A DNA stretch of 64,000 nt from positions 26,834,798 to 26,898,797 of the forward strand of contig OZ316893.1 in NCBI GenBank assembly GCA_973895155.1, read 5' to 3'. Of this stretch, positions 17,636-46,463 are shown piece by piece (within the stretch, counting starts at the first letter, position 1; each line of letters starts with the position of its first letter). This DNA is from Marsupella aquatica (lineage: Eukaryota > Plantae > Marchantiophyta). A model generated the notes under the pieces. The model was given only the letters and a program-made list of their open reading frames with translations, was not told the DNA's origin and did not search any database. The translations under genes and the position numbers were made by a program.

Positions 17636-18221
17636 AGCTGAACATTGTACATGCACAGTGCACCTGATGTGGATGTACTATTTTTTGAGATTGCAGAGAT
17701 TCCAATTTTGAAAAGGAGTTGGGTAGGCGAGTTTATATAGGCAGCACTTATCTTGTGCTCTGGCGTCAGTGGCTGGGTACATGCCTATACAAACTTATCC
17801 TTACAAGCCTTCTTGGAAGTATTTAGGCTGAGTGGTCATTTTCATAAACACTTTCATCAGACTGCTAAATTAAAACAGGACTTCTAAGTTGTAAGCGTAT
17901 AAATTATCAGGCATGCAATTAATCAAATTGCCCTATAAGTTTGTCATTGAATGTATCCTCCTTTACAACAAAATATGTATGTGCCATGACAAGTTGGTTG
18001 CACTTCATTTCACCACGGATATGGATTTTGTAGTATATATTCAAACAATGTCCTGCATCCGTGCAGGTGCCTAGTACGTATTGTTCACATATCCCTTGTA
18101 CCTATCAAAATCGGACCTGAGCACCAGTGGGCCAGATCAACTCAAAAAGCAGGAATTTTGTTGTCCTTGTATTGTCAGGTGAACCCATTCTTCCAAAATT
18201 CACTGTCATCACGTAGAGTGT

Positions 18222-19100: not shown

Positions 19101-19533
19101 GGAGTAGTAGCATCAGTTTGGATACAAGTTTTTTTGTATAAATCAGATCATTGAAATAAATGTGATCTTTGAACTAATGTAACTTGTTATGGTTGGTGGC
19201 AGTTGGGCTTATTTTACTGTTGGCGGATTGTTGTTTCCTGCTGCCTGGGGGTGTCACTGTAAACGTACATGCAGAGGCGGTACATTTGAGGACAGCGGAG
19301 GAGGTGGTGACACCCTCCAACATTTAGGAATTTTGTGTCATTCACTTGACAATAGGTACACTACTTGCGAACCTGTTTTTTTCTTTTGGGGTGGTTTAGG
19401 GTTTGTGAGAATTTAGTACACGTTATGTTAACTCTTTTGGCAGATACAATCAGGGATATATGGAACACAAATACCACCATTAGGCATCCTTGTTCACTGC
19501 TGTCCATGACTGCAGAGCTCCCAGCCTGTTACA

Positions 19534-22500
19534 ATGCACCCTGGTCACCACCCTCCCCAGACCCAGCCCAAGGCACAGGCACTGCCTTTGCATCATCCCA
19601 CAAGGATATCACGCCATGATAATAAGCTTTGGCAGCGTGAAAGGTTACGAACCAGACTTTCAGGAGCCAGTAGGATGAGATGTCCTTGTGCAATCTGCCA
19701 AGGATCCCGTACCAGGGGTCTGAATGAGGTTTGGCGGCATATCGCGGTTCATGGAAGAGATCCACGACATCGAGTTTGGAATGATCCTGCAAAGGAAGAT
19801 TCTTCCGACGAGGAGTGGAGGTTAGAATTTGATGCTGCCAATGCTGCAAGACGGGCAAGTGAGGTTCTGCCTGGTGCATTTGAAAATGTTGTAGCTGGTC
19901 TCTGTGGGTTGTCAGCTCTCCAACGGGATGGTGCTCAGGCAGCACCACGTGACGAAGGAATTCATGTGGAAGAGATGGTGAGAGACATCTTCCAAGACTT
20001 GGATGCATTTCATGATGGGCTGGACAATGAAGAGGATACGGCTGCAGATGCAAGTGTGCCCCCTGTCGAAGAGCCTCTTGATGAGTTTGAGATAGGGCAG
20101 GAAACCCCTGGGCATGATGGGATGTTTGGCTCTCCCCTGCAAATACAGGAAGGCAGGAAGTCTTTGTACCCCGGTAGCAAATGTTCTAAACTGGGATTTG
20201 TCATCATGTTCCTGAACATTTGCGGCAACCACAATGTCCCCAACATTTTGGTTTCTGAGTTGTTGGCATTCTTGCGAACAACTGTGCTACCAGATGGTAA
20301 TATTTTGCCCAAGAACATGTACGAGGCAAAAAGATGCATATCTAATCTTGGATTGAACTATGATTCGATCCATGCCTGTCCTGATGGGCATGTTCTTTTC
20401 ATAAAGGAGTATAAAGAATTGTTGACATGCCCTAAGTGTGGGAAGCACAGGTATCGAAACTCAGGAAAGTCTATGGTTCCCGCCAAGGTACTTCGTCATT
20501 TTCCACTCATTCCCAGACTTCAGCGGATGTTCAGAAGCCGTGCCATCTCGGAGATGATGACTTGGGCAACTGACAAGAAAAGTGATGATGGGCTACAACG
20601 ACATGCTGCAGATTCAAGGCAATGGAAACTCATAGATGAGATGTATCCCGAATTTGCTACTGAGCCGAGGAATGTCAGACTTGGGCTATCATTGGATGGG
20701 GTAAACCCATTTGGAGACAAGAACAACAAATTTTCGTGCTGGCCTGTAACTATTTTGAATTATAACCTTCCTCCTTGGATGACTACAAAGCGATTTTTTG
20801 TTCTGATGGTCCTACTGATACCAGGGCCAGACAATGCTGTATCTGCCAACATAGATGTGTTTCTGGCTCCCCTAGTGGAGGAATTGAGAAAGCTTTGGGA
20901 GGAAGGAGTTCTCACATATGATGTCCTACAGAGGCTTGGGAGGTTAAACCCATTCATCCTTAGAGCCATTGTCATTCTGACTATAGCTGACTACCCAGCC
21001 CATGGGATGATATCAGGCCAAACAACAAAAGGATATTGTGCTTGTACTATCTGTGGGCGCAATGTCACCAGTGAGTACTCCAGAGCCCTGCAGAAAGTGA
21101 TATACATGGGCCATCGTCGTTTTCTGAAGGCAGATCACCCTTATAGAGAAAGACAGGCACTGATTGCACACTTTGGCAATGAGATTGAGCAACGTGGACC
21201 CCCGGCACGAGTGACCAAAGAGGAGATCAGGCAGTGGGGAGCACTGAGGGATGACTATATCAAACGAGGGGGCAGGGAAGATGGAGTGAGTGATCCAATA
21301 AAGCGATATGGTGTAAAAAGACTGAGCATATTGGACTTGGAGCTCAAGTACTGGAGGGTAAGCCTCTTGGAGTTGATGCTAATTGGGATACATGTTTTGG
21401 TTCAGAGCATGTGCATTCATTTCGAAGAGAGAGACTAAACTTGAGGCATTTCCTGACGCTTTTGCATTGCAACGATGCAGGAGTTTGAGCCAAGCAAACA
21501 TAACATTGATGTTATGCACATTGAAAAGAATATTTGTGAGAGTCTACTCAGATTCTTGTGTGGAGAGAAAGACACTGGTTCAGTGAGATTGGATCTTGAA
21601 CAGAGGGGAATGAAACCCCATCTTTGGTTGAGGCCACATGCCCACAGAGCTGATGTGCTCTTGAAGTACCAAGCGCCCTATGTTCTGACAGACACAGAGT
21701 GGGAACTATTTGTGCAGAGGTTGAGTTCTTTGAAGGTTCCTTCAAACTATGGCAGTGCTTTCAAGAAGCATATCATGACTAGAAAGCTTGGTAGTATGAA
21801 AAGCCATGACTACCATATGTTGATGCAATAGGTGTTGCCTTTATGCCTGAGGGGCCTGTTGCAAAAGCCTGTTCGTACTGTGATCATGCGACTCAGTGAT
21901 GTGTTTCGTCGTATTTGTGTGAAGGTTTGGGATGAAACACACTTCCCACAACTGACAGAAGATGTCGCTCAGGTGCTGTGTGACCTGGAGATTTATTTTC
22001 CTCCCGCATTTTTTGATGTCATGACCCACCTACTTGTCCATGTTGTGGAAGAGCTACACCAATTTGGGCCTGTGAGTGCTCGTTGGTTGTACCCTTTGGA
22101 ACGGTACATGAAGTTACTCAAAGGTCACGTGAGAACATATTACAAACCTGAAGCAAGCATGGCTAAAGGTTACATCAAGGATGAGACTCTGGGATTTCTG
22201 ACCGAATACATAGCACAATATGAGCATGTGAAGACCAGGGTGTGGAATTCTGATGAGGAGGAAGGGGTGATAGGTGAAGTACTGGAAGGGGCTGCAACCA
22301 CAAAGAACTTGACCATATCTATGAGAGACTTGGCACATGACTTTGTATTGCACAACACTGTGGTGATGGAACCCTGGATACAGTGAGTGCATACATGTGC
22401 TATAATCCAGTTCATGATCTTAAATGTTGTGTTCGTGTGGTTTTCTCCTTCAGCCTGTTCATGTTTACCCAAGCTAATGCTGTGTGGTTGTTCGTTCAGG

Positions 22501-23265
22501 GAGTATGAGTCATTGAAGGCGGCCCATCCCACTGCAGGAACAACTTTTCCAGGTTTCATGGAGTGGATCAGAGTGGCAATTAGAGAGCATCACGAGACCC
22601 ACCCAAACATGGATGCAGATGTTTACCTACTGTCTAATGCCCCTAGCCTGAAAGTGAAGACTTACAAACGGATGAGAGCATATGGGAATCACTTCCGAGT
22701 GAAGGATGGTGACAGTGCCTACAGGGTGACGAATGACTGCGGGCTCATCACTGTATTTGAGTAACAGAGCCACAATCACGACAGGGCCTGGATGGAGATG
22801 GGATATGTGGGAGAATTAGTTGACATATGGGCTCTGGACTATGGGGCGGTGTCCAGTCCTGTGATTCTTATGAAAGGTTCATGGGTGCGGCAGGATTGGC
22901 TTGGTAACAGGGCTACCATGAAGAGAGACAACGACGGTTTCTTGCTGGCCAATTTCAGAGGGAAATTGCCCGAATGGTCTGAGCCATTTGTGTTTCCTAG
23001 TCAGGTGGAGCAAGCTTTCTTCCTGGATGTGGAAGACTCCCCAGGTTGGCGTGTAGTGTGTCATAAACAGGCCAGGCAACGTCGGATGGAAGGATCAAAC
23101 CTTGAGTTTCATTTACACTCTCATAGTGCCTTTGATCGTCGGCGTTCAGACCAAGTGCCTGTAGTTCATGATAGCGGGGACTTCATTCCTGTGACAAGGG
23201 TAGATGCATTTGCTGAAGGAGGCGAATTCAGAGATGCAGATGCCAACAGTGTGCCTGTGCCATGA
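19534..23265 (+). pseudogene. CACTA-1 TnpD-type transposase (transposase-associated domain, Transposase_21, DUF4218, DUF4216)
   Basis: Motifs RCPCAIC, IHACPDG, LRHFPLIPRLQR, RNVRLGLSLDGVNPF, DVMHIEKN, KSHDYH, WLYPLERYM and EPFVFPSQVEQAF. Introns at 21358-21480 and 22383-22499. Premature stops at 21829 and 22762. Confidence 0.93.
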
Positions 23266-23420
23266 GTAATGTGAATTGTTTGCATGGACATTAGTGAGGG
23301 GAAGGATGTGTAATAAAGTAATTCTGAAGCAACACAGATGTATGGATGGATGCCTGGTGATTGTGGTTGCATTGTGTTATACGGGGTGACCATAGATGAC
23401 ATGTTTTTGTGGTCCAGTAG

Positions 23421-24916
23421 GATGGAACAGAGTGACACAGAGATGTGTGAGTATGAAAGGAAAGCTATGGAACAACGAGCATACGTGAAAGCCAAAATCG
23501 CAGAACTGGATCTGGAAAAGGATGTGGCTGAATTGTAAGGGAACGATTCTCAACTACACCCCTCCGCTGAGTTTGTGTGACATGAATAGTTCAATGTGGC
23601 ACTAAAATTGTGACTGTATTCTCATATTGGAATGTCGCAGAGCCACAACATTTTCAAAGAAACAAAAGGAGTACGCAAGAAGGGTGACCAGCACTATCTC
23701 TGGGCCTGTGCGTCGGAGTGACAGGTTGAGCAAGAAGGTCGTACCTACAATGGCAGAATGTGGAGATGACATTGATGCTGCACAGGTGGGTGCAGACACT
23801 AGACAAGAAGATGCAGATGATGAGTATTTTCCAGAGGAAATGGATGAGGATGGGGTTATGAAGATGAATACATTGCAGAGCAGCCCCAAAAGAAACATGT
23901 AAGTAGTTTTCCCAACAAGGTTTTGAGTTAAAAACTCTTGTTTAGAGGTTTCATATGTTCAGTACTACACATATGTACCTTGCTTAGTTCCTGACATTGT
24001 AGTTGGTGATGTGATGCAGCGTCCTGCCAGTTCTGTTTTGCCTTTGAAGCCTGTGCATGCACCATACCAGCAGGGGGGGCTGACCTCTGATCAAGGTTGT
24101 CCATAGAGAATGTCCATAGAGAATAAGACAGGTGCTACAGAGAAGAAGTATGAGAACCTGGCAAATACTCGCTGTAATTTAGAGGCAACAAAGTTGCAGT
24201 CTGTACAAGCAACTTGTTTGACAGAGGGCAGTCAACCATGTTTGGATGAGGATGACATTGGCAAGGGAGTGGATGATATCAATGTTGGGGCAAATGAGGA
24301 TATCAGCAAGCATGACAATGATACCATTGAGCCAGATTCATGCTATGTAGATCTTGACTCCATTGCAGAGATAAATGATTTGCAGAATGTATCATTCTCA
24401 ATGACAGGTGTGCCTCTTGTTGAGATAAATCCAACCAAAGAGTTAGTTGGTATGACACTCCCAGGTGATGAACCTGCTACTGTGACAGTCCTAACAGAGG
24501 AACCTACTGAGCCTAGCTTCACTACTGTGAAGAGAGGAAGCATGCGCACACGAAGCAAGTCTGCTGGTGGGAGCAGAGCCACGTCAAAGGTTTCATACAA
24601 ACCTCCAAGAACAGTGCTGGCAGAAAGATCTAAGGTGGAAGTGGGGAAAGCACCTAATGCTGAGGGACAAAGTGGCTTGTTAGCTGTTGATGAGAGTGGA
24701 ACACGAGTAGGATTTGCCAGAGTGCAGGTTGGTTCCACAACGTTCCATGGCAAGAGGATTCCCCCAGGTTATTCAGTAGTGTTAGTCACATTACTAGTGA
24801 AACCTAAAGCTGTCCTTCCCATTCCAAACACAAATGATGATCCTCCTCAAAAGACACTTGGAGATGCTGCAGGTTCTTTGGTATTATGGCCAAGCAAGTT
24901 CATAGAGGATCCATAA
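23421..24916 (+). CDS. Spliced CACTA accessory (TNP1/TnpA-like) gene
   Basis: The N-terminal exon has EYERKAMEQR..KIAEL. The C-terminal VG.A.V....FHG..IPPGYSVVLV..L..P.A.LPIP....TLGDAAG..VLWP motif resembles the TNP1/En/Spm C-terminal domain. Probable exons ~23421-23535, 23641-23898 and 24020-24916. Confidence 0.65.
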
Positions 24917-25774
24917 CAATGTCATGCCATTATTTGTTTGTAGTGTGAGTCATGTTATGTAGATTTTAGATGTCAAGAAGCAGTACAAGAATCATGTCCT
25001 CTTGGAGATTCATAGTATCATGCATGTGCTTTCAGTTATCTCATCCTACAGTCATCAATTATGAGTTCCTGTTTTGTCTAAATTACATTGATCACATTGT
25101 AAACTATTCCATTGGAATTCAAATGATCTTCATTTTTTAGCAAGATTGTGATTGTGTTTAATTCTTATGAATGTTTTATGTAGGATCTGCTTATATGATG
25201 CTTTGTTTCATGTGGATGTCATTCATGTTATGTTCATTTCTTGTATTCAATGTGTTATATTTCTAAAGTTAGAACATCAGGTTTCTATGTATTGTAATGT
25301 CGAGTGCTCTCTCTCCTTATGAACTGTCCCTCTGTGTTCATTAGTCATGGTTATAACTTGCATGTGAACCTTATTAGTTATAAACATGAGTATATAGAGT
25401 CCCAAATGGTTCTGTTGTGTAACGTGGGCCAGGGTCTCCATTGGTCTCTCCTGTGACACTAAATAGTCACACGCTAGTCGTTGTTGAATGCGGGTAAGTC
25501 ATGTATGTGACTTACAATGTGACTCGCTGAAGTCATATTGCAGTCACGTCGAAACAAGGCTAGACTCCACAATAAAGTCACAGATCAGTCACAAATGGGT
25601 ATCAAGCAAGTTGCAAAGCCCAGTATCAATAGTGACTTCCATTTTTTGGTCTCAACTTTTGCAACTCCAAGGGTCACAGCGTGGGTCAAGTCACGTTGAG
25701 TCACAATGAAGTCACATGAGCCAAAATGAGTCATATATTGCGGTCTCAGTTCACCTCGGATTCTTCTAGTGTCT

Positions 25775-26460
25775 TTGAAGTATTAAAGCAAAACTATCAG
25801 GGTGTGAGGACTGATAAGTTGAAGGGTCTCCAGGAGTTTGAGCGCAAGACTGGAGAGAGTCTACATGAGGCATACACTCGTATGCGCAGATTGATCACTG
25901 TCACCAAGGGAGTGACAAAGGCTCAGGCAATCCAATTTTGGTATGCAATTCTGGATAGAGAATTGCGATGCAGAGTGAGAGATGTCACTCTACTTAGGGA
26001 TGCAGATCCCACATTGGCAGTTGTTTTTACACTTTCTGAGCGAATTGAGCTCAATATGGTGAATGAGAAGGTGGTGACTTTTAGATTTGCCAAGAAAGCA
26101 CCAAAGGCTGCATCTATATCTACACCACAGCCTACTGCACGGAAGAGCCAAAGGGAGAAGCCTATTGCACAAGAGTCTACCAGTCAGAGACCTGTGCCTT
26201 CCTATGCTGGACAACAGTCAGAATGTTGGACCTGTGGTGGGGATCATGCGCAGCGGTATTGCCCTGATCATAGAGAGTCAGGAGGGGCCTCAACACCTGA
26301 TCAACGGCAGTGTGATCATTGTGGAGCTCCTAGACAACACCAAGGATAGGTGTTTTTCACTCCATCCTAAGTTACGGAGAGGAGAACAACGCACACATGA
26401 TCAGGGAAGAGGAGGTAGAGGTGGTGGTCGTGGCCGAGGTATGCCACATGTAGCGAGGTA
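25775..26460 (+). pseudogene. gag: gag 3' part with two zinc knuckles and RGG tract
   Basis: LQEFERKTGESLHEAYTRM (gag MHR-like), CWTCGGDHAQRYC, CDHCG..H.. (frameshift) DRC, and GRGGRGGGRGRG. Confidence 0.85.
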
Positions 26461-27974
26461 GGGAGGTGATATTGCTCCTGCTATGACCACAAATCCTAAG
26501 GATACTAAGATTGCTCAATTGGAGCAATAACTAGCTACTATGGCTAGTTCTCAGGTGAGACCTGCTTCTGGTGATGGGGCTTCTACATCCTATGGGGCTT
26601 CCACATCTTATGGGGCTGATGGAGATCTTGCCACTATGGGATTCATGTGTGGCATTGCACACATTGATGCATCAACAACTTTGACGCGTGGGGCAGCAAA
26701 AGCTCTTGAGCCTTGAGGAGCAGTAGTGGAGCTAGATCCATAGAGGGGGGATGCACATTGGCAGACAAAGCTTCCTCATTCTTTTACATTGGCAGAGACA
26801 GTTCAGACTGCCTCTATGAACCCGGTTCAGACAAACCCTAGTGTGGGTCAGTTGGCAGAATCAGGTAGTGATGCAGCGGGGATGACAGGTACCTTGCTGG
26901 GGGCGGCTACTACCATAGTGCGCACCCCATTATTTTCAGCGACAGACATGCTGAACTTGGGAGTTGGTCCAGCTAATGTGTTTAGATTGGCAATCACATT
27001 ATGCGAGGATACTCCAGTTTTGGCTTCTCGTGCAGAGGCAGCATGCAGTTCTAGAGCAGAAAAGTTGACACCGCCTACTACAACTAGTGAGACATGGCAT
27101 GCAGCAATGGCAAAGTTGATGGATTTGCCAGCACGCCCTGCATTTGAGAGGACTAGGTTTAAACCTAGCGTTGTGTCATTGGATAATCGGAGTGGTATCT
27201 TCCGATTAGTTGGGCCTACTGGAGCCATATACCAGCTAGAGAGAGTGTTACTGGATACTGGTGCTCAGCCCTTGATGTTGGGTAAGTCTGCGGTACGAGG
27301 ATTGGCATTGCGTCCAGACGATCTGGAGGAGTGTCCCTTTCCTATTTAGACTTCATTGGGGGGACTTACACCCACACAACACATCACCAGATGACCATTT
27401 GAATTGAGGATTCAGGAGGGTCATGCCAAGGATAGCTCCCACATACAGGCGCAAGCTATTTTGACTAAGGCAGAGTCCTATGATGTGTTGGTGGGATGTA
27501 CAGTGTTGTACCCCATGGGATTTATTCTTGATTTTTGGGATGAATCAGTGTCATATAAACCTGATTGGCAATCAGGAGATGCCAGATTGAGCAGATTGCC
27601 AGTACAATTTAGTGGACCTGTGGGAGGCCCTAAACCTACACTATTGTCTTTGGCAGCCTTCAGTGGTGTGATCACTGATCCTGATGATTTGATGGAGGGT
27701 AATGCACATGCAATAGATGTTCCATCAGTGGAGGAGTCACATGAGGAGTAGATGGTGCGAAGGAGCAATGTGGATTGGGATGATCCCAATCCAACTAGTG
27801 TTGTGCCACCAGTATGGGGTACTGCACTGGCCTTGCCATAGAGGGCAGCACAATTGGTACATGATGCATGGCGTCATGCTTTTACACCACAATCAGGAGC
27901 AGAGCAGTCTCCTACAAGTGGGCCAGTGACTCTTTCACCATTGGATACCACTCCTATTGCATGGCAGTATCCAC

Positions 27975-28925
27975 TAGAGGGTATTTGTTTGTTGGATCTA
28001 TTTGGTGGGATTAGCATTGGATTGGCTGCTATTCTTCAGGCAGGAATTCCTATGCGTCGCTACTTGTATGTGGAGACAGATGAGACAACACGAAGAGTCT
28101 CATTGCGCCATGTGGCTATGTTGGTGGACCATTATCCACAGTTGTTGCCAGTGGATGTTGTTCGTGGCTATCAGCATGCACTGCCTGCTGATATTTCACT
28201 GTTGGGGGCGGATCATTTGGATCGTGTTGGCCCTATTGATTTGGTGATTGTTGGTTGGCCATGTCAAGGCCAATCTAGAGCTAGAGTTGGACATGGACTT
28301 CATGATCCACGCTTTGCATTGTTTTGGGAGATGTTACAGGTATTGCGTCATCTCCAGTTCCATCAAACACATTCCCCTGCCTACATTTTGGAGAATGTGC
28401 CACTATTGGATGATGAGCGTCATCGACTTGTTGCTAATGTTCATCAGGTCAGATCTTGGATTGGACCTGCTGTGTTATTGGATGCTGCACGTGTGGGTTC
28501 TCATGCACATCGTCCACGCTTGTGGTGGACTAATTTGTTACCTTGTGAAGTGTTGAAGCGAGCATTTGATAGCATTCCTTGCTCAACATCCTTGGTGGTG
28601 GATGATATTTTGGATCCAGGGCGTTGTGCACAACATGTGATCCAGTCTGACAGACCTCCATTGGCAGTGGTCAATATAGTTGGTCGCCCGCGTTGTGCAT
28701 TACCCACTTTTGTGAGCCATTCTGCTTCACATGCATTTAGAGTAGGTGGGCCTGGACTTGTGTGGGATACAGCTCTACAGCAGTTAGTGGAGCCTATTGC
28801 TGATGAAAGAGAGTGTGCTATGGGATTTTTGATAGGCACTACTGCAATTGCGTTGGTGTCAAAGAGTTCTCGCCGCCAGGTCCTTGGTCAAGCCATGGAT
28901 TTGAATTGCTTGACTTGGATTATCA
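27975..28925 (+). CDS. C5 cytosine DNA methyltransferase domain within pol
   Basis: Motif I LDLFGGI, II YVE.D, IV GWPCQG, VI ENV, VIII RPRLWWTN, IX ERE.AMGF..GTT, X RRQVLGQAMD. Same reading frame as protease and RT. Confidence 0.92.
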
Positions 28926-31900
28926 GCTTGGGAGTAGCTGAACAGTTGCGGATGTGCTCTGCTGGTGTTACTGATCGTCCATCAGTGAGCTTGCGGTTCA
29001 CTGAGACAGTGATGACCACAGTTGGGGGCGAGCAGACAGTCCATGGACCTATGGCAGGATTGGCCAAGGCTGGACAGATTGTTGAGCAGGAAGGGACTGC
29101 TCAATCTACTACTAAATAGCAATCATCGGCTATCTCTTCTACCCTACAAAAAGATATTAGGGATCTGGTGGAGAGTTGGGAGCCATAGATTGGTCCTAAG
29201 TTAACAGGGGAGGAAAGACGTCGCATGCATCAATTCCTGAAGAGTTACTGGAATTGTTTTGCATTCAACATGAAGGATTTGGGGACATTGAAGGGCCTTG
29301 GTATTCAGATTGAATTGGCTAGTGATGCGTCAATCTTTTGTAGACCATATCGTTATAGTGACATGGAGAGAGCTCTAATTCAGAGCAAAACTCAGGATTT
29401 GTTGGAGGCTAGTTTGGTGGAGATCTCATACGGGGAGTATGCATCTGCCATAGTGATGCCAGCCAAGAAGGATGTGCATGGTGATTACACAGATAGGCGA
29501 ATGTGTGATGATTACCGACCTATTAATCGTCAGACAAAATCTGATTGATATGCCATGCCCACACCTGAGGAGATCTTTGATGCAGTGGGGCATGCAAAGG
29601 TTTTTAGTTCATTGGATCCGAGGGCAGGGTACCATCAGCTTCCAATTAGACATTCTGACAGGTCCAAGACAACATTCTGGGGAATTGATTCTTATGGCAA
29701 GGATCGTTTGTATCAGTGGTTGTTCTTACCATTTGGGTTGAAGAATGCACCAGCTGAGTTTCAGAGAGTCATGGATCGAATCCTTGCAGGTTTGGATTTT
29801 GTCAGATGTTATATTGATGATATTTTGGTTTATTCTTCTACTGTGGAAGAACATCAACGACACTTGCAGATTGTGTTTGAGAGATTGAGGGAACATGGAT
29901 TGAAGCTCCATCCCGGCAAGTGTAAGTTCTTCCAAGAATAGATTGAGTATTTGGGCCACACTATATACCCAGGGGGATTGGGTGTACAACAGACTAAAGT
30001 GGAGGCCATTACACAGATTCCTCGTCCTACTGATGTGAGTAGAGTTCGTGCATTCTTGGGATTGGCGAGCTACTATAGGAGGTATGTTAAAGGATTTAGC
30101 CAGCTTGCTAAACCTTTAACCATACTTACTAAATTGGATCAGGAATGGATTTGGGGTGATCATCAGGAGCATGCCTTTCAGGAGTTGAAAGAAAGATTGG
30201 CATCATCCCCTATTTTGAGAAGACCCATTTCAGGGAGACCATTTTAGCTACACACTGATTTGAGTGGAGTAGGACTTGGCGTAGTGCTGACTCAGAAAGA
30301 TGATGTAGGACATGAGTTTGTTGCACGGCATATGCCAATAGATCAAACAATTCAGTAGAGGCTAAGTATAGCTCTTATGAGGGAGAGTGTTTGGCAGCAG
30401 TGTGGGCTGTGGCACACTTCCGCTGTTACTTGTTTGGTAATCCTTTCACTTTGATCACTGATCATCAGCCTCTCAAGTGGTTAATGGAGTCTGACAAGCT
30501 TACTGGGAAGCTTGCAAGATGGGTGTTGTTGTTGTAGGAATATGATTTCCAGGTTGTACATAGACCTGGAAAAATGAACTTGGATGCGGATGGATTGAGC
30601 CGCAACCCATGTACCAGTCAGCAGGATGAGACCGGAGCCAGATGGCATGATGAGTCAGATAAGGAGATGGTGCCAGGATGGCATGCATCTGCCTTCCTTT
30701 GTTGGGTTCGAGCATGCAGTGGATCTGTGGATTCTACTTCATTGGATGAAATAGATGATGAGTCTTCAGATGTGTATGTAACTTCTGGACAGCAAGATAT
30801 TCACAATGATGTGAGAGTGTTGGAATATTTGCGCAGTGGTTCTATTGTTGGTAGTGTTGATGCCAAGGAACGTGATAGGGTTCTACAGAGAGCCAAGAGG
30901 TTTCGATGGGAAGGAAACCATCTTTTGAGAGTACTACATGATGAAAAGGTATTGGTGGTACCAAAACCATCACAACGAGTACATTTGGTGCGACATGCGC
31001 ACGAGGAGTTGGGTCACTTTGGTGTGAAGCGCACTTACAATTTGTTGCAGACACAGTATTGGTGGCGTGGTATGCACACTCATGTCCAGCAACTGATAGT
31101 TAAGTGTGGTATGTGATTGAGTGAGGGCATCATTTAATGTTCCCACTCCCCAGTTGCATCAATTGCCAATCATGGGTTTGGGGTACAGATTGAGTTTGGA
31201 CTTTGCTGGTCCATTGCCTCTCACCCAACGACATAACCGTTATGTTTTGGTTATGGTGGAGCACTTCTCCAAGTGGATTGAACTAGTGGCATTGCCAGAT
31301 AAAGCTAGTGGAGGAGTGGCTACCACATTTATGGATCGAGTACTCAGTCACTTTGGAGCACCAGCTGAGGTGTTGACTGATCAGGGCACGGAATTCCGTG
31401 GAGATTTGAGGGTTTGTGTGAGCAAGCTCTGATTGACCATTGTACTACTTCTCGCAATCATCCTGAGGCAGATGGATTGGCAGAGAGAGTTGTACAAACT
31501 GTGAAGAGAGGATTGCGCAAGTATGGCTTGCAGGTTGGTCATTTGGGAGACTGGGATCTCCAACTACCTTGGTTAGCTATGGGCTACCGTTTCAGTCGAT
31601 AAGCATCACTTGCATCCTTCTCACCCTATTTCTTGCTATATGGTAGAGAGCCGGATTTGCCAGCGGCTATTCGTGTGATGTTGCAACTATTGTGGATTTG
31701 GATGATCCAGATATTTGGGTAAAGGTTTGTTCAGAGAGGGCACGCGTTTTTGAGAAAGTCATGCCCATGGCCTTTGACAACCTTGCTATTGCCCAGCATC
31801 GTGATACTTTGCAGTATGCTACTATTCATGGAGGAGGTTATCGCACGAGGATTAGGAGATTCTCATCCTGGTGATTATGTTTATTTGCAGCAGACAACAC

Positions 31901-32092
31901 CAACAACGCTTGATGTGACCGCAGGGCGGACAATCTTGCGTGTGCGTGAAGTGTTGCCTTCTGGAGTCCTTATGTTGGAAGGGCGTGATGGTATGGTTTG
32001 GAAGGATCATGTGCGTAATTGTGCACCATGTCACCTTCCAAACATTGATGGCACTGTGGATCCAAGCTTGGCACATGTACGTGCTAGCTTGA

Positions 32093-32399: not shown

Positions 32400-32409
32400 A
32401 GGGGGGCGA
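32400..32409 (+). other. Polypurine tract
   Basis: AGGGGGGCGA lies immediately before repeat B1. Confidence 0.65.
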
Positions 32410-33384
32410 TTTTGGGTTTTGGGCATGTGTGGACATTGGTTCCATTTGTACTCCATTCTCTTATGTTTGTGTTAGTGGATTGTGAATATGTTTGGATATG
32501 TGTGACAAGCGATGTATGTTGCACTAGTACATTTTAGGGCCATTATCCGATAGCTATTCCGTCGGATCCCTTCGGAAACTTCATTTCGGAAAAATCAACT
32601 ATCCGATGTAACCCGCTTCGCAATATCCCATCCAATCCTCATCGGAAATCAACCATCGGACTTACTTCGGACTTTCCGTTGATGATGCCGACGGACTTTC
32701 CGATTCCAACCCATTCGCAAACCTGCACATCCGATCCAATACGTATCGGACACCAACAAACAGACCTTCTCTCAAAACAACCATTGTCCGATAGTAATGG
32801 TATGGGATAGTTCCATAGTTTTTGCTACGTACATTGCGATGCGTGTAGTATCGGAGTTTACGATACGTTTAGTATCGGAGTTTGCCTTTGGAGAATTATC
32901 GGATATTGCGTTAGATTTGGTATCGGATAGTGCGATGTAATGAGGTTTGGAAAATCCAATGACGTTGCCATCGGACACATTGTTTTGATGTTTTGGTTTT
33001 GTTGGAGGGGTCCGATGCGGAAAGGATCGGATGCTGTGAAGGGGATTGAAACGAAAGGACCGATGAAGGTGCAAACGGACATCATAACGGATGGCTTAAT
33101 TTGTTACAATAGCTACGGTTTCATGGGTGGTTATTTTGGGTTTGAGAACATCAACCAATATATTAGGGTCCAAAGGAGGCTCAAAACATGTGGTCAAAAT
33201 CTCATATTAAAAAAGGGGATGACCCCGATATGTACAAAATGGAATGGGCCTACCTAGTAGACCCATCTCAGCGACTGTTTGCTCCATGGGAACACCTAAA
33301 TGGAGCACTGAGTAGAGACTACACTCCATGGCACCTGCTAAGATCTAATCAAAGCTACCAGACCTACCTACACGGCACTAACCT

Positions 33385-35900
33385 CTAAAAAGATGTGTTC
33401 CGTCCCTTCTTCTTCTTGTGGCGAGAGCGAAGCTGGGGAACAGGTGCGGGATCCACAACCGGTGGAGCCACCTGTTGACCAGATGGTGGGTATAATCTTG
33501 TCCTACCCCCTGACCCACTAGATGCACCGCTAGGCACGGTAGAAGTCCCACCAACCCCTGACACAACAGAGTGAAAGGAGGCCTCGCCCCCCGGCAGACC
33601 TACTAGAGTGATGAGAGGCTGCGGCTGCGGATGATGCATGTGGCCCATGTCGTGCTGTACTGCCACCTGACTCACGAGATGGCGCTAGACCCCTAGAGCC
33701 ACCATCGTCCAAGTCACCACTGCCTCGACAAGGGGGGCTAGGTGCAGCAGATACTTCTCAACGAGGGGGGTTAGGTGCAGAGCATACTCCTGAGCGATGG
33801 TGTGGGCCTGCACCACCTCTACTACCCCCTGAAGGCCCCGGCCTCGTAGCCCGCGATGCTCCCCGTGACTGATGAGAGCTCACACCATCAACAGCATGTG
33901 ACCCACCTCCCCTCCCTCCCAATATGAGGGTAACATGAGGTATCTGGGCAGTAGGGGCAACTCTAGGAACAGTCTGGGCAACTATAGGAACAGTCTGGGA
34001 AACTCTAGGAATAGTCGCGGTAGCTCTAGGCTCCCTCTGCAACCCTGCCTCAGATGTTGAGTCCTCATCATCTGACTCCCCAGACCCCTCCTCCTCCTCC
34101 TGCACATTACAATTAATTAAAGTAAGGAACTTGGTCAAAACTCTACAAATGTAGCAGTGCTCTAGCTAAGCAAAATATTGTCCCAACTTAGGTAGGGGGA
34201 GGGAACAATTACCTCTCCCAGCTCATCCTCAATCTATCACTTTAGAGCACGGGGTCCATCCCTTGCTGCTAGTTCCCTCTCTTTTGGATCAATGGGACGA
34301 CCATACTCCCTCTCCTAACATTTCAAAATAAAAAGACCACTTCAGCACAATAAATTTAGTTTCAACCATAAAATCCACTCCCTATACCAAACTTCTCCCT
34401 CTCAAAACTCTATGCCTTCTATAACTTCTATAACTTACTTAACCCCTAGCAAATACTCTAAACCCTAAAAAAATCACCAGTGAACTCAAGAAGGGGTCCA
34501 TTCCGGAATTTCATGCAAGTCAAGCATCCCTATCCTATGCAATCAAAAAAACCCTAAACCCTACCCGTTTTAAACAAACTAAACCCAAATTCACTCAAAA
34601 TATACTCGTTCCGATGCAGCATCCGATATGGATTCTATTGGACTGCTATTGGACCCCTCATCCGCTAAATTTTAATGTTACTATGTCCGATGCGGGTTAC
34701 GACGAACAAACATCGGACTTAACAGTCCTGAGAGCAAAACAAGGGGGATCGGATCGTGATAAAGCAAAACGGGACAACCAAAATGTTCACTCTTCGCAAG
34801 AGAAGTCAGGTGGTCAGGGAGAGGAGCAAGGGAGGAGGGAGCTAGGAGGGAGGAGGGAGGAGCCACTTACAAACTCGGCCTTCAATCGATTGGAGCCGCC
34901 TTGCCCCATCCGGTGAGTCACAATGGGCCTCTCTTCTACTCGCTTCAATGCTGCTATGATGTTTGCAGGAGGTTTTTGAAGTCTTGCTGCTTGAGCTGCC
35001 CACTGTCGAAGGTTCAGTTGGAGGGGTGCCATGTCAATATCCTCCCCGGCAGCTCACTTTTCTTCTGCAATCCTGATTTCGTTGTCCCAATGTCGTCTCT
35101 TTAGCCAGGCTCGAACAGAGAGCTCCTCCTCAAGCCAAGCTGTCCATGCATCCTGGGGAATCACATCTGGACACTGGTGCTCCCTGACCACCTCTGCATC
35201 TATTGGCAAATCAGTAAGGTAATCCCTCATCTTCTCCCGCACATGATTCCTTGCATCTGAAACAGAGGCTGAAATTTGACTGTTTAGAAATTTGTCTTCA
35301 AGGTGGGCTCCGTTCTTGAATCTTTCTTTGATCTGCTCCTGAACCCTGGTCCTCTCCTCCTCTGTTTTCTTACCCCAGTAGTCTAGTGGCCCAAAATTTG
35401 CCCTCACAACCTGCAAGAATTGGCTGCAGAACAAATTGTAGCTCCTAGGTATTGGAGCCCCACCTGAATTGATAGCCGGCTCAGGTTGCAGAGCCCTCTC
35501 AGCCTCCCTTCGCCTTTGATCCTCAACTAGCAGCCTCTCTGCCTCCCTAGCTTATCTTCAAAGCTTTTTCTCCCTTTTCCGAGGAGAGAGAGCCTCCTCA
35601 CCATTTGGCCTAGCCCTCTCCGCCTCCTTTCTCTTCTTCCTCGCCTCTTTCTCTGTTGCGAGGCCTGCTGCAGCAGCCTTCTCTGCCTCACCTTTTGAGG
35701 CATCAAGCAAAACCTGAAGCATCGAGACTACTCTTGCTGCATCCTCCACTGAAAGCCCTGCCTTGGCCACAAACAACTCCCTCATTATCTCCTCATATGG
35801 CCGGGATGGCCCAGCCCCGTCTCCCCCATCACCCAATCCTCCTTCCCCCACCATCTCTCCTCCTTCCCGAGCTCCTCCCCTCTCGGCCTTAGAAAATTTT
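33385..35900 (-). pseudogene. Divergently oriented, spliced TnpA/Ptta-like accessory gene of CACTA-2
   Basis: W.......R....I..RF, CPDVIPQDAW..W and HRMGQGG (Transposase_24-like), with donor TTT|GTAAGT near 34870. Acidic and low-complexity 3' exons; stops and frameshifts present. Confidence 0.6.
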
Positions 35901-36852
35901 CTGAAATGACTGATGTGCGAAGGAAGCCCCGTAGTGTGCGCCTTCGCAAGCGCATCGGGATTTACGGATTTCAAATTTTGAATCAAGTCCGATTGTTTCT
36001 GCTTCGAAACATCCGTAGCGTATAATATTGAATGTCAAATCGGACCTTCCGATGCGTGTTGCATCGGACCCCTCCTCCGGCTCGTTATTCCTCGCTTTTA
36101 TGAAGTGTGATACGTTGGAAACGGTATCGGACCCCTCGTATAATATTATCGGATAGGGGGTTAAGTAGGGCTTATGTAGGGGTCATGTAGGTGTATGTGG
36201 GAAGGACCGGTTGTATTAACATTTAATCATCATGTATGTTTGAATCAGGTTTTATAGGGCCCTACATGTGGACACATACCGCAGGGGGTTGGCAACGGTG
36301 TCGTGGATGTGATATATTGACCTTCTTGCAATTTTGGGGTTTGTACCTGAATCCAGATTTTTTTGTGATATACTTTGGTTATCCATGTTCAATTTGCTAA
36401 TATTCGTCTTTGGGTTTGATGTGTAGTACCTTGGTTTTGAAGGGGTGGTTAGGCTTTTGTAGGGTGTTAGCTAGGTAGGTTATTTTGCAATGCACAGTGT
36501 GAGACCGCGCATCCAAAAGGTATGATGCCCCATCCATTTATTCCTTGATCCTTTAGGCTATTTCAGGTTTGGCATGCAAGTTTTTATCATATGTGCTTGA
36601 GCTTGTTTTCGGAAATTGTAGATCATGCATGCTCATTATGAAAATGTCCACCTTGCAAAGATTTTGGATATCCCCACACTTTGTGTATAGAGATACGGCC
36701 TAGTAGGCACGGCAGAGCGCGGGTATCATTGAGGTATAGCAAGTGTTGTATATATGTCTCTCATTCAATTGTTTTTCTAGACATAAATATTTGTCTTGCT
36801 GGTTTTTTTCTTTCATCCAACATATTGTCATGGTTGTATGATATATATGCAG

Positions 36853-38169
36853 ATGTCTTGCTTCCAATAGTTCCACGTCGGATTCAAACTCAGACACGAG
36901 CTTGTCTGAGGAGGAGGTTCCTCCACCCCCCCCTCCAGACCAACCTCGTGCTCGGCCACTAGGGTCCATACCTTGTTGGTGTGTGAGATGTAAGGGACTT
37001 GTGGTTCGACATGCCTGGGAGACTTGTGAGCACATCAAAAACTATAGTCGCCACGAGGGTGATACACCAGGGTATTTGCCTAGCCAGGTAATAAATACGT
37101 CCCTCCTTCATTCCATGAAATTCCAATAATTAGTCCACAAATGCTAAATTACTTTACATCTAAACAACAATTCATGTATTGATTTGTGTCAAATCATTGT
37201 TTGTTGAAATAGGTGCCTTGTAGACCCCCACCTCCTCTGGTTGATAATGCTATGTGGTTGGAAGGGTTTCTAGCAAGGGCTAGTGAGTTGCTTGCATCTG
37301 CCCTTGCCCATCCACCTCTTAGTCCCCCTGCTCCTATCCCCACACATGCGCATGTAGACGAGGATGCACCGGTCTCTCGACCCGAGGAAATGGATACTAG
37401 GGTCCTACGTACACATTCACGGTCTCGCAGACATAGATGACAATATGAACTGGTGGAGCAGGTAGAGAATCGGGAGGAGGCGTTACGTAGTGATCGACCA
37501 CCCGGAAAAGGAGATTATATTTGTGTTGAGGGCCGGTTTGGACTATCTTATCTCACTGGTAGGGCTGCTGATGTTTGGAAGGACTTTTCTCCTAGTCTCT
37601 TCAAATTTCCAGATTTCATTCATACTGATGAACCAGTTGACATATGGGGTCGGCCTTGGATAGTGAAGGCATCCTCTATTGGTGCTGATATAGGATATGG
37701 TCTATATGCTTTGGAGGACATTGTGGTCCCTCCAAAGCCATGGAGACGTGGATATGACGGAGAGCACCTTTCCCGGCACCTTTTCCCTTACATTGGGGCT
37801 GTATTTCATGCAAAGAGTTGGAAGACTTTGTTGCGTCAGCACCCAAGCTGGGGGGTGTACGCCTTGAGGATGGACTCAGACCCAGATGAGGTTTTGACTA
37901 GGCCGTGGCATTGTAGGATGATTGATGGTGACCCTATTCAGAATGGTAATTTAGCAGGGTACATCAATAGTACAACGGGTAGAGGTAGAGATTTTGAGGC
38001 TAATGTAGAGTGGATCCAAATTTTTGGCCCTCCTAGAGATCCGTATTTTGTGAAACATATGGATGACCATATCATGACAGTAGCCATTAGGACTATTAGA
38101 GCCGGTGAGGAGATATTGTGTGAGTATGAGTGGGACGCCCCAAAATTGTCCCTACGTTGCCGTCCATGA
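36853..38169 (+). pseudogene. SET-domain gene: CxCxxC..H exon (to 37087) + SET exon (37213-38169)
   Basis: VKASSI..GYGLYALEDI, IDG..GNLAGYINS, ANV and AIRTIRAGEEILCEY. GT-AG intron 37088-37212 in phase 0. One CGA>TGA stop at 37438 and a probable +1 frameshift near the start. Confidence 0.82.
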
Positions 38170-38297
38170 TAGTATGTTGGACTTACATGCATGTAAATCT
38201 TACATTGAATTAATGAGATTCATGATGATTTATATATATATATTGATGATTGTAATGAGATTAATGTTAATGAGATTGCATTGATGTTGTATGATAG

Positions 38298-41200
38298 AAT
38301 CAATATGTACAATCTGATATTGGGGTCATATCACGAGCTATGCGACAACACATTGTTGAGGCCATGGTGGCCAACCATGGGCATGATGGAGGGATGCAGG
38401 AGGATGATGTACAACATGAGGGTGATAATCCTACTCAAGCACATCTGGATGAGGAGAGGGCCATGGATGAGGTCATGGACCAATTTTATGATGATGATGT
38501 TGATATTGGTATGGAGGATATGGGTACAGCTGATGACAACACCACTCATCCAAGACCTTCTAGGGGGGGACAGAACAAGGATTGGGAGGAGGCTCAACGT
38601 CATGCTCGTACTCGCATATTTGAGGGTAGCACCTTATCTCGGCTCTTTGCAATAATGTTGTTGCTGAATGTGCAACAAAGACATGGGGCTAGCAACCTAC
38701 TTTTGGATGATGTTTTTCGTACCTTGCATGATCACATTTTGCCACCAGGCAATACCATGCCAGCCTCTTGGAAGGAGGCAAAACAAGTGTTGAAGTCCAT
38801 TGGCCTCAAGTATGTAGTGATACATGCATGTGTGAATGATTGTATTCTTTTGAGGGGGGAGCATGAGAATGCAACTGCATGTCCTAAGTGTGAGAAGCCG
38901 CGCTACCGTGATGACATGTTGACAGGGAAGGTGCCTCAAAAGGTTATGCGATACTTTCCTCTCATCCCCCGATTGCGACATCAGTACCGTTGTGCAGAGT
39001 TAGCTGAGTACATGGTATGGCACTCAAAGAATCATTCTGATATGGCTACGAACTCTAGTGCCATGCGGATGATGGTTGACTCTCCTGCCAATCGATTTTT
39101 TGAGGGCAGATGGGGGGAGTTCAGCACTGAACCACGACATGTTCAACTTGGCTTGGCAGCTGATGGTATCAGCCCTTTTGCATTGGCGGGTAAAGCAAAA
39201 CCATATTCAGTATGGCCAGTAGTTTTGACTAACTACAATATCCTTCCATGGATGGCCATGAAGAAAGGTCATTTATTGCTCTCCATGATCATCTCGGGTC
39301 CTAAGCAAGTAAAAAAGATTGACATCTACTTGCAACCATTGATTGATGAGCTTTTGCAACTGTGGAGAGGAGTGGATTGTTATGACGGACGTCGCAATAT
39401 AGGAGGTGTACCTCGCACGTTTACCCTCAAGGCCATCCTTATGTGGACCATGCATGACCTACCAGGTATGACCTGATAAACCTTAGCTTATTTCCTTGAT
39501 GTACTACCTTAAATTTAGTGTGCATTAACCTTATTTCATAATTGGCTGGTTGTATATGGGCTTGGTACAGGGTTTGGGTATATCTCTGGATTGCAAACAT
39601 CAGACTATCGAGCTTGCCCTTCATGCGGACCGGATTTGGAGGGAGTGGCAAGACGCAAGTCAAGTACTTTGCGTAAGATAGTTTACATTGGTCATACCAA
39701 ATCTTCCAGCAGACCATCCTTGGAGGAGTGATCATTTCTTGTATGACATTGATGAGGGCCAACCTGATACTCGTCCTCAACCTCAGCGAAAGGATCCAAC
39801 ATATTGGAGAGAGGTATGGGAGAGAGTTCAAGACCCTGATGATCCATTACAGTTTCTCCGATGTGGCATGACCCGTTTATCTGCATTGTCACAGTTGCCA
39901 TATTGGTCAGAGATGCCCATTAATCACTTGTTGGATGCGATGCACATTGAGGGAAATGTGGGGAGATCATTGATTCGTCATCTATATGGGGAGAAGAACC
40001 ACAACTGGAGAGAAAGTTGTGAGGAGATGGGGATGCATGGTCTTTTGGGTTTTTGGCCATCTTTGGACCCCCTTGGTGATCCCCCTAGCATCCATCCTCC
40101 TTGGGTTTTGACCAGGGCAGAGCGCATAGAGTTTCGCAGACGGATTGGGTCAATGAGGTTTCCCACAGGTTATGGTGCCAATCTTCGTAAGGCATTTGGG
40201 GGGGATGATTCTCCAAAATGGCCATCGTACCTAAAAACACATGATTATCATCGGTTACTAGAACATGTCATTCCAGTTGAGATTATTGGATTGGGTAGTG
40301 AGGAACTTCGTGATGCTCTTTGGTCATTGGGCAAGTTTTTGAGATGGGTATGTCAGAAGGAGGTACCAGAGGATGACATTGCTGCGATGGAGATATTTGG
40401 AGTAGAGGTTGTTTGCAAGTTGGAGAAGGCACTTCCACCCTCATGCTTTGATGGTCAGGTTCATTTCCTCATACATTTAGTGCGTGAGGTAGCAATTGCA
40501 GGCCCAGTACATTGTCGATGGATGTATTGGGTAGAGCGTTACATGGGGGTGATGAAGTCATATGTCTCTAATCGGGCTAGGGTGGAAGGTAGCATTGCAG
40601 AGCGTCATCTTGGAGCAGAGAGTATGTTTTATTGTACAAACATAGTTGTCACACTAGATCCAAGGGCACCTAGGGGATGGATAGATGAGGCGGCACGAGA
40701 GGCAGACTATTAGGATGATAGACTCACTGGGGCATCAGGAGAGCATGGCTTAGGCTCAGCAGAGCGTTTGCAACTTACAACATTTATATTGTATAACTCA
40801 CCAGAGGTTGTAGGGGAGTGGACAACATTTTATGAGGAGGAGAAGCAAAATAGTCGACGGCCACGGTTGTTTCCCAAGTTTCACCCATACATGAAATCAA
40901 AGTTGTTAGAAGTGGATGCCTTGGTGGGTACCGGAGACAGTATATTACATTACCCACAAGTGACTGATAAGCTTCGTACCTTGGTTCATGGTCCACTGCT
41001 TAAAGTCACGACTCGGACGACAATGTGGTCAAAGGGGAGACATTTTTGTGTGGAACGACTTGATGAGAAGAGAGCAGCTACACAAGATTGTGGGGTGATG
41101 GGTTGAATTGGTTCACCCAGGATTCCTAGAGTAGCACGTCAAACATGAACCCCATTCGCTCCACCGTGGCCCATTATGGGAAGATTGATGAGATCCTGAC

Positions 41201-42321: not shown

Positions 42322-42651
42322 TGTCACACCATTTAGAGTGGTAGTAAAGTATATTGTACTATCTAGGGTATAGAGGTTTTGTATGTGTGCTATATGAGCA
42401 CTTTGTGTTTAGTTTGAGTTGGTGTGAGGGATAGTTATCCCCTTGTGTTGGCTCAAAGGCCTCATCTTTCAATGTTGAGCCTTTGAGCATGAGCTTGGTG
42501 GCTATGGTGTGGCTGACCAGGTTGTGTGCATGTAACGTGGATTCCTTGAAGCACAAGGTGCGTTGGGCTTGACATATATGTGTGATCGCGTCGGACGGGA
42601 TTGATGTTGGATTAGCACTGATCATTGTTCAATTTCATCCATTGAAGATTA
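42322..42651 (+). repeat. Repeat A2 (330 bp)
   Basis: Copy of 9303-9632. Confidence 0.93.
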
Positions 42652-42652
42652 T

Positions 42653-46431: not shown

Positions 46432-46463
46432 CGAGCTTGAAAGGACTGAAGGGGGTGGGAATT

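What the first reader, a model, noticed from the sequence alone, without database searches (positions are those of the whole stretch)
27854..29119. Retrotransposon-encoded cytosine DNA methyltransferase in frame between protease and RT in a land plant
Seen: motifs I, II, IV (catalytic PC), VI, VIII, IX and X are present in canonical order, with DNMT3-like spacing. The domain shares the frame of LLDTGA and YIDD and has no stop, although the flanks do. Known: DNMT-bearing retrotransposons were reported in Symbiodinium and the charophyte Klebsormidium (de Mendoza et al. 2018). Inference: this lineage persisted into or entered land plants and may methylate its own cDNA or target site.
Basis: partly seen in the sequence, partly recalled or inferred. 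Interest (0 to 1): 0.88.

Follow-up and report, generated by a model that had tools for sequence, protein, structure and literature searches.

The report
Split-repeat retrotransposon with Gag-linked DNA methyltransferase
This is a dead copy, in a liverwort-like genome, of a moss and liverwort jumping gene that carries its own DNA-methylating enzyme; a conserved stop signal keeps the enzyme on the capsid-protein gene, so it is likely made in bulk and likely methylates the element's new DNA copies.

Summary
The methyltransferase is real: PF00145 hit, closest to DNMT3A, between protease and RT of a Ty3/Gypsy element. The host is liverwort-like. This copy is dead (12 decay stops, about 6 frameshifts, two nested CACTA transposons), but the family is abundant and the domain is conserved and co-inherited with RT in Marchantia, Calypogeia and Sphagnum relatives. 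The scan has noted such elements in bryophytes before (8 notes on other genomes).

(1) The stop right after the DNMT (TAG CAA TCA, the CAR-YYA readthrough signal) is conserved, not decay: 43 of 44 scored relatives have a stop there, and an intact 46%-identical element has it as its only stop. ORF1 is therefore Gag-protease-DNMT; RT-RNase H-integrase-PHD likely follow by readthrough. (2) The element has no ordinary LTR pair but split repeats, A-body-B-GC-A-B, with TG…CA ends, a 4-bp target duplication and a palindromic inner junction.

It is a variant of Klebsormidium KnitGypsy-Dnmt3; common descent and enzyme activity are untested. Young Marchantia copies make it testable.

The parts
9299..9302 (+). 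Left target-site duplication, CCAT
   Evidence: same 4 bases at 42792-42795
9303..9632 (+). Repeat A1, 330 bp, starts TG; 5' end of the element
   Evidence: 96.7% to A2, 10 transitions and 1 transversion, K2P 0.034
10215..10642 (+). Leader array of 7 hairpin-forming 23-nt units, about 70 nt apart
   Evidence: 8 matches in the window against 0.01 expected; unit folds with z -2.9; the pattern was not found in 4 moss-type leaders
11391..11844 (+). gag, 5' part
   Evidence: 11391-11672 matches residues 1-94 of Marchantia ORF1 proteins at 74-79%
11845..25771 (+). Nested CACTA transposon 1, inserted in gag; TCT duplication
   Evidence: CACTA...TAGTG ends; Tnp2 transposase; sister contigs join 25772 to sequence like that before 11845 (table 7)
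25772..26335 (+). gag, 3' part with zinc-knuckle motifs
   Evidence: matches residues 142-338 of P0122
27200..27598 (+). Aspartic protease (LLDTGA at 27248-27265)
   Evidence: relatives hit PF13650/PF13975
27974..28948 (+). DNMT3-like C5 cytosine methyltransferase domain
   Evidence: PF00145; DNMT3A best by sequence, profile and fold
29117..29125 (+). Conserved stop plus CAR-YYA hexamer (TAG CAA TCA); end of ORF1, likely readthrough site
29339..30600 (+). Reverse transcriptase (YIDD 29810-29821) and RNase H, with stops and a frameshift
   Evidence: PF00078, PF17919; the intact relative L082 is closest to Ty3 Pol
30907..32070 (+). Integrase (H2C2, DDE core, C-terminal part), broken by frameshifts
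   Evidence: PF17921, PF00665
32089..32232 (+). PHD finger at the end of Pol
   Evidence: PF00628 E 1.4e-11; closest solved PHDs CHD4, KDM5B, ATXR5
32400..32409 (+). G-rich purine tract directly before B1, likely the plus-strand primer site
   Evidence: same tract before B1 in 5 of 5 loci printed
32409..32521 (+). Repeat B1, first part
   Evidence: 94% to B2
32522..42291 (.). Nested CACTA transposon 2, inserted in B1; TTG duplication
   Evidence: inverted ends; Tnp2 and DUF4218
42295..42321 (+). Repeat B1, last part, ending ACA, then the 2-nt spacer GC; with the start of A2 it forms a 10-bp palindrome
42322..42651 (+). Repeat A2
42651..42791 (+). Repeat B2, ends CA; 3' end of the element
42792..42795 (+). 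Right target-site duplication, CCAT

Best explanation
The window holds a dead copy of a Ty3/Gypsy-type retrotransposon with split repeats whose first ORF encodes Gag, protease and a DNMT3-like methyltransferase, and whose RT, RNase H, integrase and PHD finger are likely made by ribosomal readthrough of a conserved stop, so that the methyltransferase is likely packaged in bulk and would methylate the new cDNA. Shown: the anatomy, the conserved stop and its context, the 4-bp duplication, the palindromic B-GC-A junction, conservation of the domain. Inferred step 1: a minority of ribosomes pass UAG-CAA-UCA, so DNMT is made at Gag level and RT/integrase at a low level. Inferred step 2: with no tRNA primer site seen, the purine tract before B1 primes a plus strand across B1-GC-A2, which serves as template to rebuild both ends. 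Inferred step 3: the DDE integrase cuts after CA on each strand of the palindrome, giving the usual CA-3' ends, and inserts with a 4-bp duplication. Inferred step 4: the DNMT methylates the cDNA, probably at CG, so the new copy arrives marked like host repeat DNA; the PHD probably reads unmodified H3 tails to aim insertion. My odds: anatomy 0.95, readthrough 0.8, cDNA methylation as main role 0.5, junction cleavage 0.5.
For: Domain order: protease before the DNMT in 50 of 57 loci and RT after it in 51 of 56 loci with enough flank, of 80 fetched. Stop: 58 non-redundant loci had enough sequence, the site was found in 44, 43 have TAG or TAA there and all 44 are followed by CAA; control, 19 of 575 decay stops are followed by CAR and 0 by CARYYA; of the window's 13 in-frame stops in 26336-30322 only this one has CAR. 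L082 (46% identical DNMT) has one stop in its whole 6.2-kb frame, TAG CAA TCA at this place; its next in-frame Met lies inside RT, which argues against reinitiation. Gag-PR-DNMT proteins of 1278-1435 aa from Marchantia, a Calypogeia cluster and unnamed sources end 50-125 residues after the domain. CAR-YYA is the known plant-virus readthrough signal (PMC2194720). Split repeats: complete in L067, partial in L003, L008, L031; 4-bp duplication exact in the window and 3 of 5 loci, 3 of 4 bases in 2. Selection: window versus loci, DNMT dN 0.28 at dS about 1.8, RT 0.17 at 1.7, PR-DNMT linker 0.62 at 2.2. DNMT and RT trees agree, rho 0.95, 0 of 2000 permutations, 14 elements. Catalytic Cys kept in 65 of 66 loci. 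Foamy-virus integrase cleaves palindromic LTR-LTR junctions (PMC1180852 abstract).
Against: The exact CARYYA is present in only 2 of the 44 loci; 40 have CAACCC followed by an in-frame ATG, and these loci are one clade, so not independent. No conserved stem-loop after the stop. Six Marchantia or Sphagnum gene models run from DNMT into Pol by skipping the linker, which could reflect real splicing. CpG depletion of the element (o/e 0.35) equals that of the CACTA neighbours (0.37, 0.43) and intact L082 is at 0.76: no trace of self-methylation beyond host methylation. The Klebsormidium DNMT gave no methylation in yeast, called inconclusive by the authors. Within the moss-type loci DNMT dN/dS is 0.55 against 0.39 for RT (decay-dominated). 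dS is near saturation between lineages. No permuted A-B-A-body-B copy among 20 A starts, which a symmetric circle would predict.
Confidence: 0.68

Rival explanations
1. Same element, but the abundant DNMT acts outside the particle: it methylates host chromatin or the insertion site, or acts as a decoy for the host DNMT3 pathway, rather than marking cDNA.
For: Placement on the Gag side of the stop gives far more enzyme than one cDNA needs (inference). No extra CpG loss in the element. Host DNMT3b is the de novo CG and CHH enzyme of moss heterochromatin (PMC6453930 passages).
Against: Fusion to Gag and protease is the usual route into the particle (general knowledge). Catalytic motifs are kept, which a pure decoy would not need.
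Confidence: 0.2
2. Pol is expressed by splicing, reinitiation or a second transcript, not by readthrough.
For: In-frame ATG two codons after the stop in most moss-type loci; gene models that skip the stop; Tca2 shows that an in-frame stop need not follow the simple readthrough model (PMC2194720 passages).
Against: Window, L005 and L082 lack that ATG and have exact CAR-YYA; the frame is kept across the stop in 31 of 47 decayed loci and in intact L082; the skips in the gene models begin and end at different places.
Confidence: 0.15
3. This particular copy's DNMT has been domesticated as a host gene, which is why it has no stop.
For: No stop in 425 codons where the flanks have 12 in 903; among relatives only 3 of 67 DNMT regions are stop-free.
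Against: The first Met of the frame lies after motif I; substitutions at conserved places against P0121; end branch 0.15 against 0.049 for P0121; gag is cut by a 13.9-kb insertion; the locus was chosen for being open.
Confidence: 0.04
4. The DNMT is a passenger: a captured host gene fragment with no role in the element.
For: Activity is unproven for any Gypsy-borne DNMT3.
Against: Conserved over lineages as distant as 46% identity, dN far below dS, tree matching RT.
Confidence: 0.03

Closest known systems
KnitGypsy-Dnmt3 of Klebsormidium nitens (de Mendoza et al. 2018, PMC5890265; read parts 1-5 of 7 with figure legends, passages of the peer-review file and rows of the species table; figures and supplementary figures not seen)
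   Same: Gypsy domain set, DNMT3-like domain with unpermuted motifs, purifying selection, DIRS-like repeat layout (their legends: A-coding-B-A-B).
   Different: There the DNMT is stated to be in the same ORF as RT and RNase H; here a conserved stop separates them and the DNMT belongs to the Gag-protease ORF. Host is a land plant. In the text I read there is no target duplication, junction palindrome, readthrough signal or PHD. Marchantia and Sphagnum are absent from their species table.
PAT, TOC and Ngaro tyrosine-recombinase retrotransposons (PMC4157794, passages)
   Same: Split direct repeats A1-B1-A2-B2.
   Different: They integrate by a tyrosine recombinase; here a DDE integrase, TG…CA ends and a 4-bp duplication, and no recombinase ORF.
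Stop-codon readthrough in TMV, MuLV gag-pol and SIRE1 (PMC2194720 and PMC3441728, passages)
   Same: In-frame stop with CAR-YYA regulating a downstream enzyme.
   Different: Here the stop lies after protease and DNMT, not between gag and protease or between pol and env.
EpiLTRs and DAM-LTRs (bioRxiv 10.64898/2026.05.21.726589, section 8 and passages; supplements closed)
   Same: LTR elements with a methyltransferase and a chromatin reader.
   Different: Their DNMT is sister to DNMT4, with DAM and chromodomain; here DNMT3-like and PHD. The preprint refers to 'streptophytes (Gypsy-DNMT3)' without naming land plants in the passages found.
Chlamydomonas Gypsy-7a_cRei and REM1 (PMC9940879 and PMC2774666, passages)
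   Same: Green-lineage Gypsy elements with a PHD finger.
   Different: No DNMT reported; Gypsy-7a has left and right LTRs.

Membership tests
C5 cytosine methyltransferase (PF00145) | Profile hit above cut-off; motifs I, IV (PC), VI (ENV), VIII, IX, X | tested here: met
C5 cytosine methyltransferase (PF00145) | Methyl transfer to DNA cytosine | not testable with these tools
   needs an assay
DNMT3 | Closer to DNMT3 than to DRM, DNMT1, DNMT2 or bacterial enzymes; unpermuted motifs | tested here: met
   Profile against PDB: DNMT3A 1e-19, DRM 3e-9, M.HhaI 5e-5, DNMT2 4e-4; fold search lists only DNMT3 entries in its shown rows, on a model of mean pLDDT 59
DNMT3 | Nested in the DNMT3 clade in a tree with host enzymes | not tested
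   no host DNMT3 sequence was retrieved
Ty3/Gypsy (Metaviridae) | Order PR-RT-RH-IN and RT closest to Ty3 | tested here: met
Ty3/Gypsy (Metaviridae) | TG…CA ends and 4-6 bp target duplication | tested here: met
   norm as stated in PMC12440569
Ty3/Gypsy (Metaviridae) | Two complete LTRs flanking the body | tested here: not met
   5' end has A only; 3' end has B-A-B
Ty3/Gypsy (Metaviridae) | tRNA primer-binding site after the 5' repeat | tested here: inconclusive
   no TGG-type site directly after A1 in the window or in 4 of 4 loci printed; no host tRNA set was compared
KnitGypsy-Dnmt3 | DNMT3 in a Gypsy element with DIRS-like repeats, under purifying selection | tested here: met
KnitGypsy-Dnmt3 | DNMT in one ORF with RT and RNase H | tested here: not met
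   conserved stop between them; P0145, P0146 and P0149 do have DNMT within one Pol ORF
KnitGypsy-Dnmt3 | Monophyly of RT and DNMT with the Klebsormidium copies | not tested
   no Klebsormidium protein among named hits; the sensitive profile search could not be run
PAT/Ngaro tyrosine-recombinase elements | Split direct repeats | tested here: met
PAT/Ngaro tyrosine-recombinase elements | Tyrosine recombinase | tested here: not met
   DDE integrase instead; leader has no frame over 134 codons and no coding match between window and 5 loci; about 180 bp between PHD and B1
Troyka | CG…CG ends, 3-bp duplication, animals only | tested here: not met
   PMC12440569 parts 1-3 of 5
Chromovirus | Chromodomain after integrase | tested here: not met
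   the last ORF hits PHD families only

The most novel reading that the evidence does not exclude
An unrecognised streptophyte group of integrase retroelements that has given up the LTR pair and the tRNA primer, rebuilds its ends from an internal palindromic junction that integrase cuts, and loads its particle with a DNMT3 at capsid stoichiometry so that each new copy is inserted already methylated, with young copies present in the model liverwort Marchantia.
Probability: 0.3. Interest if true: 0.85.

Novelty: new variant of a known kind. Interest (0 to 1): 0.62.

Why it matters
What transposon-borne cytosine methyltransferases do has been open since 2018, because the hosts were dinoflagellates and one alga. 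Marchantia polymorpha is genetically tractable, has methyltransferase mutants, and carries at least five Gag-PR-DNMT gene models of 1278-1281 aa at 95-98% identity, now labelled hypothetical proteins. The readthrough stop predicts that the enzyme is abundant, which changes the models for its role and means derepressed copies could alter the host methylome. Split repeats with a DDE integrase imply an undescribed replication route, and such elements would be missed by LTR-pair finders.

Tried and rejected
No whole genome is held for the window, so copy number and intact copies in the host could not be counted. No RNA holder listed; no evidence on expression. Read laying over the 5' end gave no result, so the 5' junction in sister copies is open. 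The profile search over protein representatives never ran (queue full, 8 tries), so range beyond bryophytes and the Klebsormidium link are open. Viral contigs gave 1 distant DNMT at 29%; prokaryote genomes gave 1 locus, L082, which is a whole retrotransposon in a cyanobacterial assembly and likely a eukaryotic contaminant; neither supports a phage or bacterial donor, but the patterns were family-specific. Atlas look-ups with relatives returned only generic DNA methylase clusters. My recollection that Troyka elements have split repeats was wrong. A conserved stem-loop after the stop was sought and not found. CpG depletion as a mark of self-methylation was uninformative. The shift of frame near 26336 is not a programmed gag-pol frameshift: full-length relatives run Gag-PR-DNMT without a break and sister contigs differ there by one base. 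The careful tree did not finish; one search is a quick tree of 41 rows without an outgroup. dN/dS for the linker after the DNMT could not be computed (0 loci mapped). No tRNA gene in the window. Not-in-print claim: searches found no paper on land-plant Gypsy-DNMT3, its readthrough or its ends; Repbase, subscription journals and the Marchantia genome papers were not available, and the figures and supplementary figures of PMC5890265 and the supplements of the 2026 preprint, which may bear on this, were not seen.
Full report
Observation. The frame 27842-29119 is open and hits PF00145 above the curated cut-off. Motifs I to X are in linear order. Among solved structures DNMT3A is the best match for the single sequence (E 9e-9), for a 22-sequence profile (1e-19, against 3e-9 for DRM and 5e-5 for M.HhaI) and for a moderate-confidence model. 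Protease LLDTGA and RT YIDD lie in the same frame. Downstream are RNase H, integrase and a PHD finger. A neighbouring VAPYRIN-like gene is closest to Marchantia (76%) and Riccia, so the host is most likely a liverwort.

The whole element. Self-comparison shows two repeat pairs. Read with the sequence they give: CCAT, A1 (9303-9632), leader, gag, pol, B1, GC, A2 (42322-42651), B2 (to 42791), CCAT. The element starts TG and ends CA. Two CACTA transposons are nested in it, one in gag (11845-25771) and one in B1 (32522-42291), each with a 3-bp duplication; without them the element measures about 9.8 kb by subtraction. The copy is dead: 12 stops besides the conserved one in 26336-30322 and about six changes of frame. 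A1 and A2 differ by 0.034.

The family. Searches returned 167 and 29 relatives; the named ones are from Marchantia, Riccia, Calypogeia and Sphagnum at roughly 47-73% identity, none from Klebsormidium or vascular plants. In four public runs the element body is covered far more deeply than the low-copy part of the nested CACTA, and the DNMT bins about as deeply as the RT bins (run X1: 180,000-190,000 against 227,000, and 1,000-6,000 in the CACTA part; the tool warns that this is no copy number). Of 187 metagenome matches the best 80 were kept, 68 clusters with L081 counted. Protease precedes the DNMT in 50 of 57 and RT follows in 51 of 56 loci with enough flank. In a quick tree the window's DNMT lies in a 99-support group with the Marchantia, Calypogeia and Sphagnum sequences. 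DNMT and RT distances agree over 14 elements. Between window and loci, dN is 0.28 for DNMT, 0.17 for RT and 0.62 for the linker, at dS near saturation; among the decayed loci the ratios are 0.55 and 0.39. The domain is a selected, long-standing part of the element.

The stop after the DNMT. In 47 loci with an undisturbed linker length, 31 keep DNMT and RT in frame and only 1 of those has no stop between them. Anchoring on the site, 44 of 58 loci could be scored: 30 TAG, 13 TAA, 1 TAC, all followed by CAA. Of 575 decay stops, 19 have CAR and none CARYYA. Most of the 44 are one moss-type clade with CAA CCC ATG, so the independent cases are few: the window (TAG CAA TCA), L005 (TAG CAA CCA), L082 (TAG CAA TCA) and that clade; L047 has two stops in a row at this place. 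L082 is the strongest case: 46% identical in the DNMT, one stop in 6.2 kb. Full-length Gag-PR-DNMT proteins end at this place. CAR-YYA alone directs readthrough in tobacco mosaic virus (PMC2194720 passages). I infer programmed readthrough, which puts the DNMT in the abundant Gag product. Against: the clade's hexamer is one base off, six gene models skip the stop, and no RNA structure supports it. Three distant proteins have the DNMT inside one Pol ORF, two of them between RNase H and integrase, so the position of the domain has changed within the wider group.

The ends. L067 is a second complete A-body-B-GC-A-B element with an AAGG duplication. Of 21 B ends examined, 4 run on into the junction and A, 14 run into unrelated flank, 2 follow a partial A and 1 is at a contig end; 0 of 20 A starts are preceded by B. 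Short A-body-B forms carry a 4-bp duplication (L027 exact; L058 and L043 three of four). They may come from B1-B2 recombination, from cutting at two junctions, or from assembly collapse; I cannot tell. The junction is a palindrome of 10-16 bp in the window and 3 of 4 loci. A G-rich tract precedes B1 in the window and 5 of 5 loci; no TGG-type primer site follows A1. A cut after CA on both strands of the palindrome would give exactly the ends that retroviral integrases join (general knowledge), and foamy-virus integrase is reported to cut such junctions (PMC1180852 abstract). This replication route is inference.

Role of the enzyme. Packaging with Gag and methylation of the cDNA is the most economical reading and is the one proposed for DIRS-borne DNMT3, which methylated CG in yeast; the Klebsormidium enzyme did not, inconclusively. 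The element's CpG loss is no greater than its neighbours', so sequence gives no direct support. The PHD is closest to those of CHD4, KDM5B and ATXR5; that these read unmodified H3K4 is recalled, not from a call.

Comparison. The closest known system is KnitGypsy-Dnmt3, which has the same repeat layout and domain types. It differs, as described, in having the DNMT in one ORF with RT. Membership by descent is untested. Later papers mention 'streptophytes' without naming land plants in the passages I found (PMC12344493; 2026 preprint). Passages of the Marchantia sperm preprint, a chromatin survey, PMC6453930 and a 2026 review do not mention these elements. Eight earlier notes of this scan report the DNMT-bearing Gypsy in bryophytes; look-ups for readthrough and split repeats found none on this family.

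Verdict. Real; a new variant of a known kind. The land-plant range, the readthrough stop and the integrase-plus-split-repeat anatomy are supported by sequence; enzyme activity, substrate and replication route are predictions. Interest 0.62.

Noticed in passing
window 16928-19100: Nested CACTA 1 carries frames with NSD-like PHD fingers (weak, E 5e-5) and a twin BRCT domain (E 2e-11) upstream of its transposase.
   Followed up: partly
window 37441-38169: Nested CACTA 2 carries a SET-domain frame (PF00856, E 5e-6) just before its transposase: another chromatin enzyme on a transposon.
   Followed up: partly
window 27771-27793: One perfect copy of the leader hairpin unit lies inside the coding linker between protease and DNMT; role unknown.
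   Followed up: partly
window 44162-50393: L1-type LINE (DUF4283, zinc knuckle, endonuclease, RT, zf-RVT) with few stops.
   Followed up: partly
window 2184-4462 (-): VAPYRIN-like MSP-ankyrin host gene, closest to Marchantia polymorpha.
   Followed up: yes
window 43008-43125 and 54611-54728: 118-nt inverted repeat pair, 84% complementary, flanking the LINE region; not explained.
   Followed up: no
L082 1-6203: An apparently intact Gypsy-DNMT element sits in a cyanobacterial genome assembly, likely eukaryotic contamination.
   Followed up: yes
proteins P0145, P0146, P0148, P0149: Distant relatives with other domain orders: RT-RH-DNMT-IN-PHD in one ORF, and DNMT-RT-RH-IN without a stop; hosts unnamed.
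   Followed up: partly
L027 5979-14618; L058 2265-12055; L043 1476-7417: A-body-B copies with no repeat at all but with a 4-bp duplication; invisible to LTR-pair finders.
   Followed up: partly
window 5591-5714, 53505-53647, 56854-56957: Short two-copy tandem repeats of 52-70 nt.
   Followed up: no
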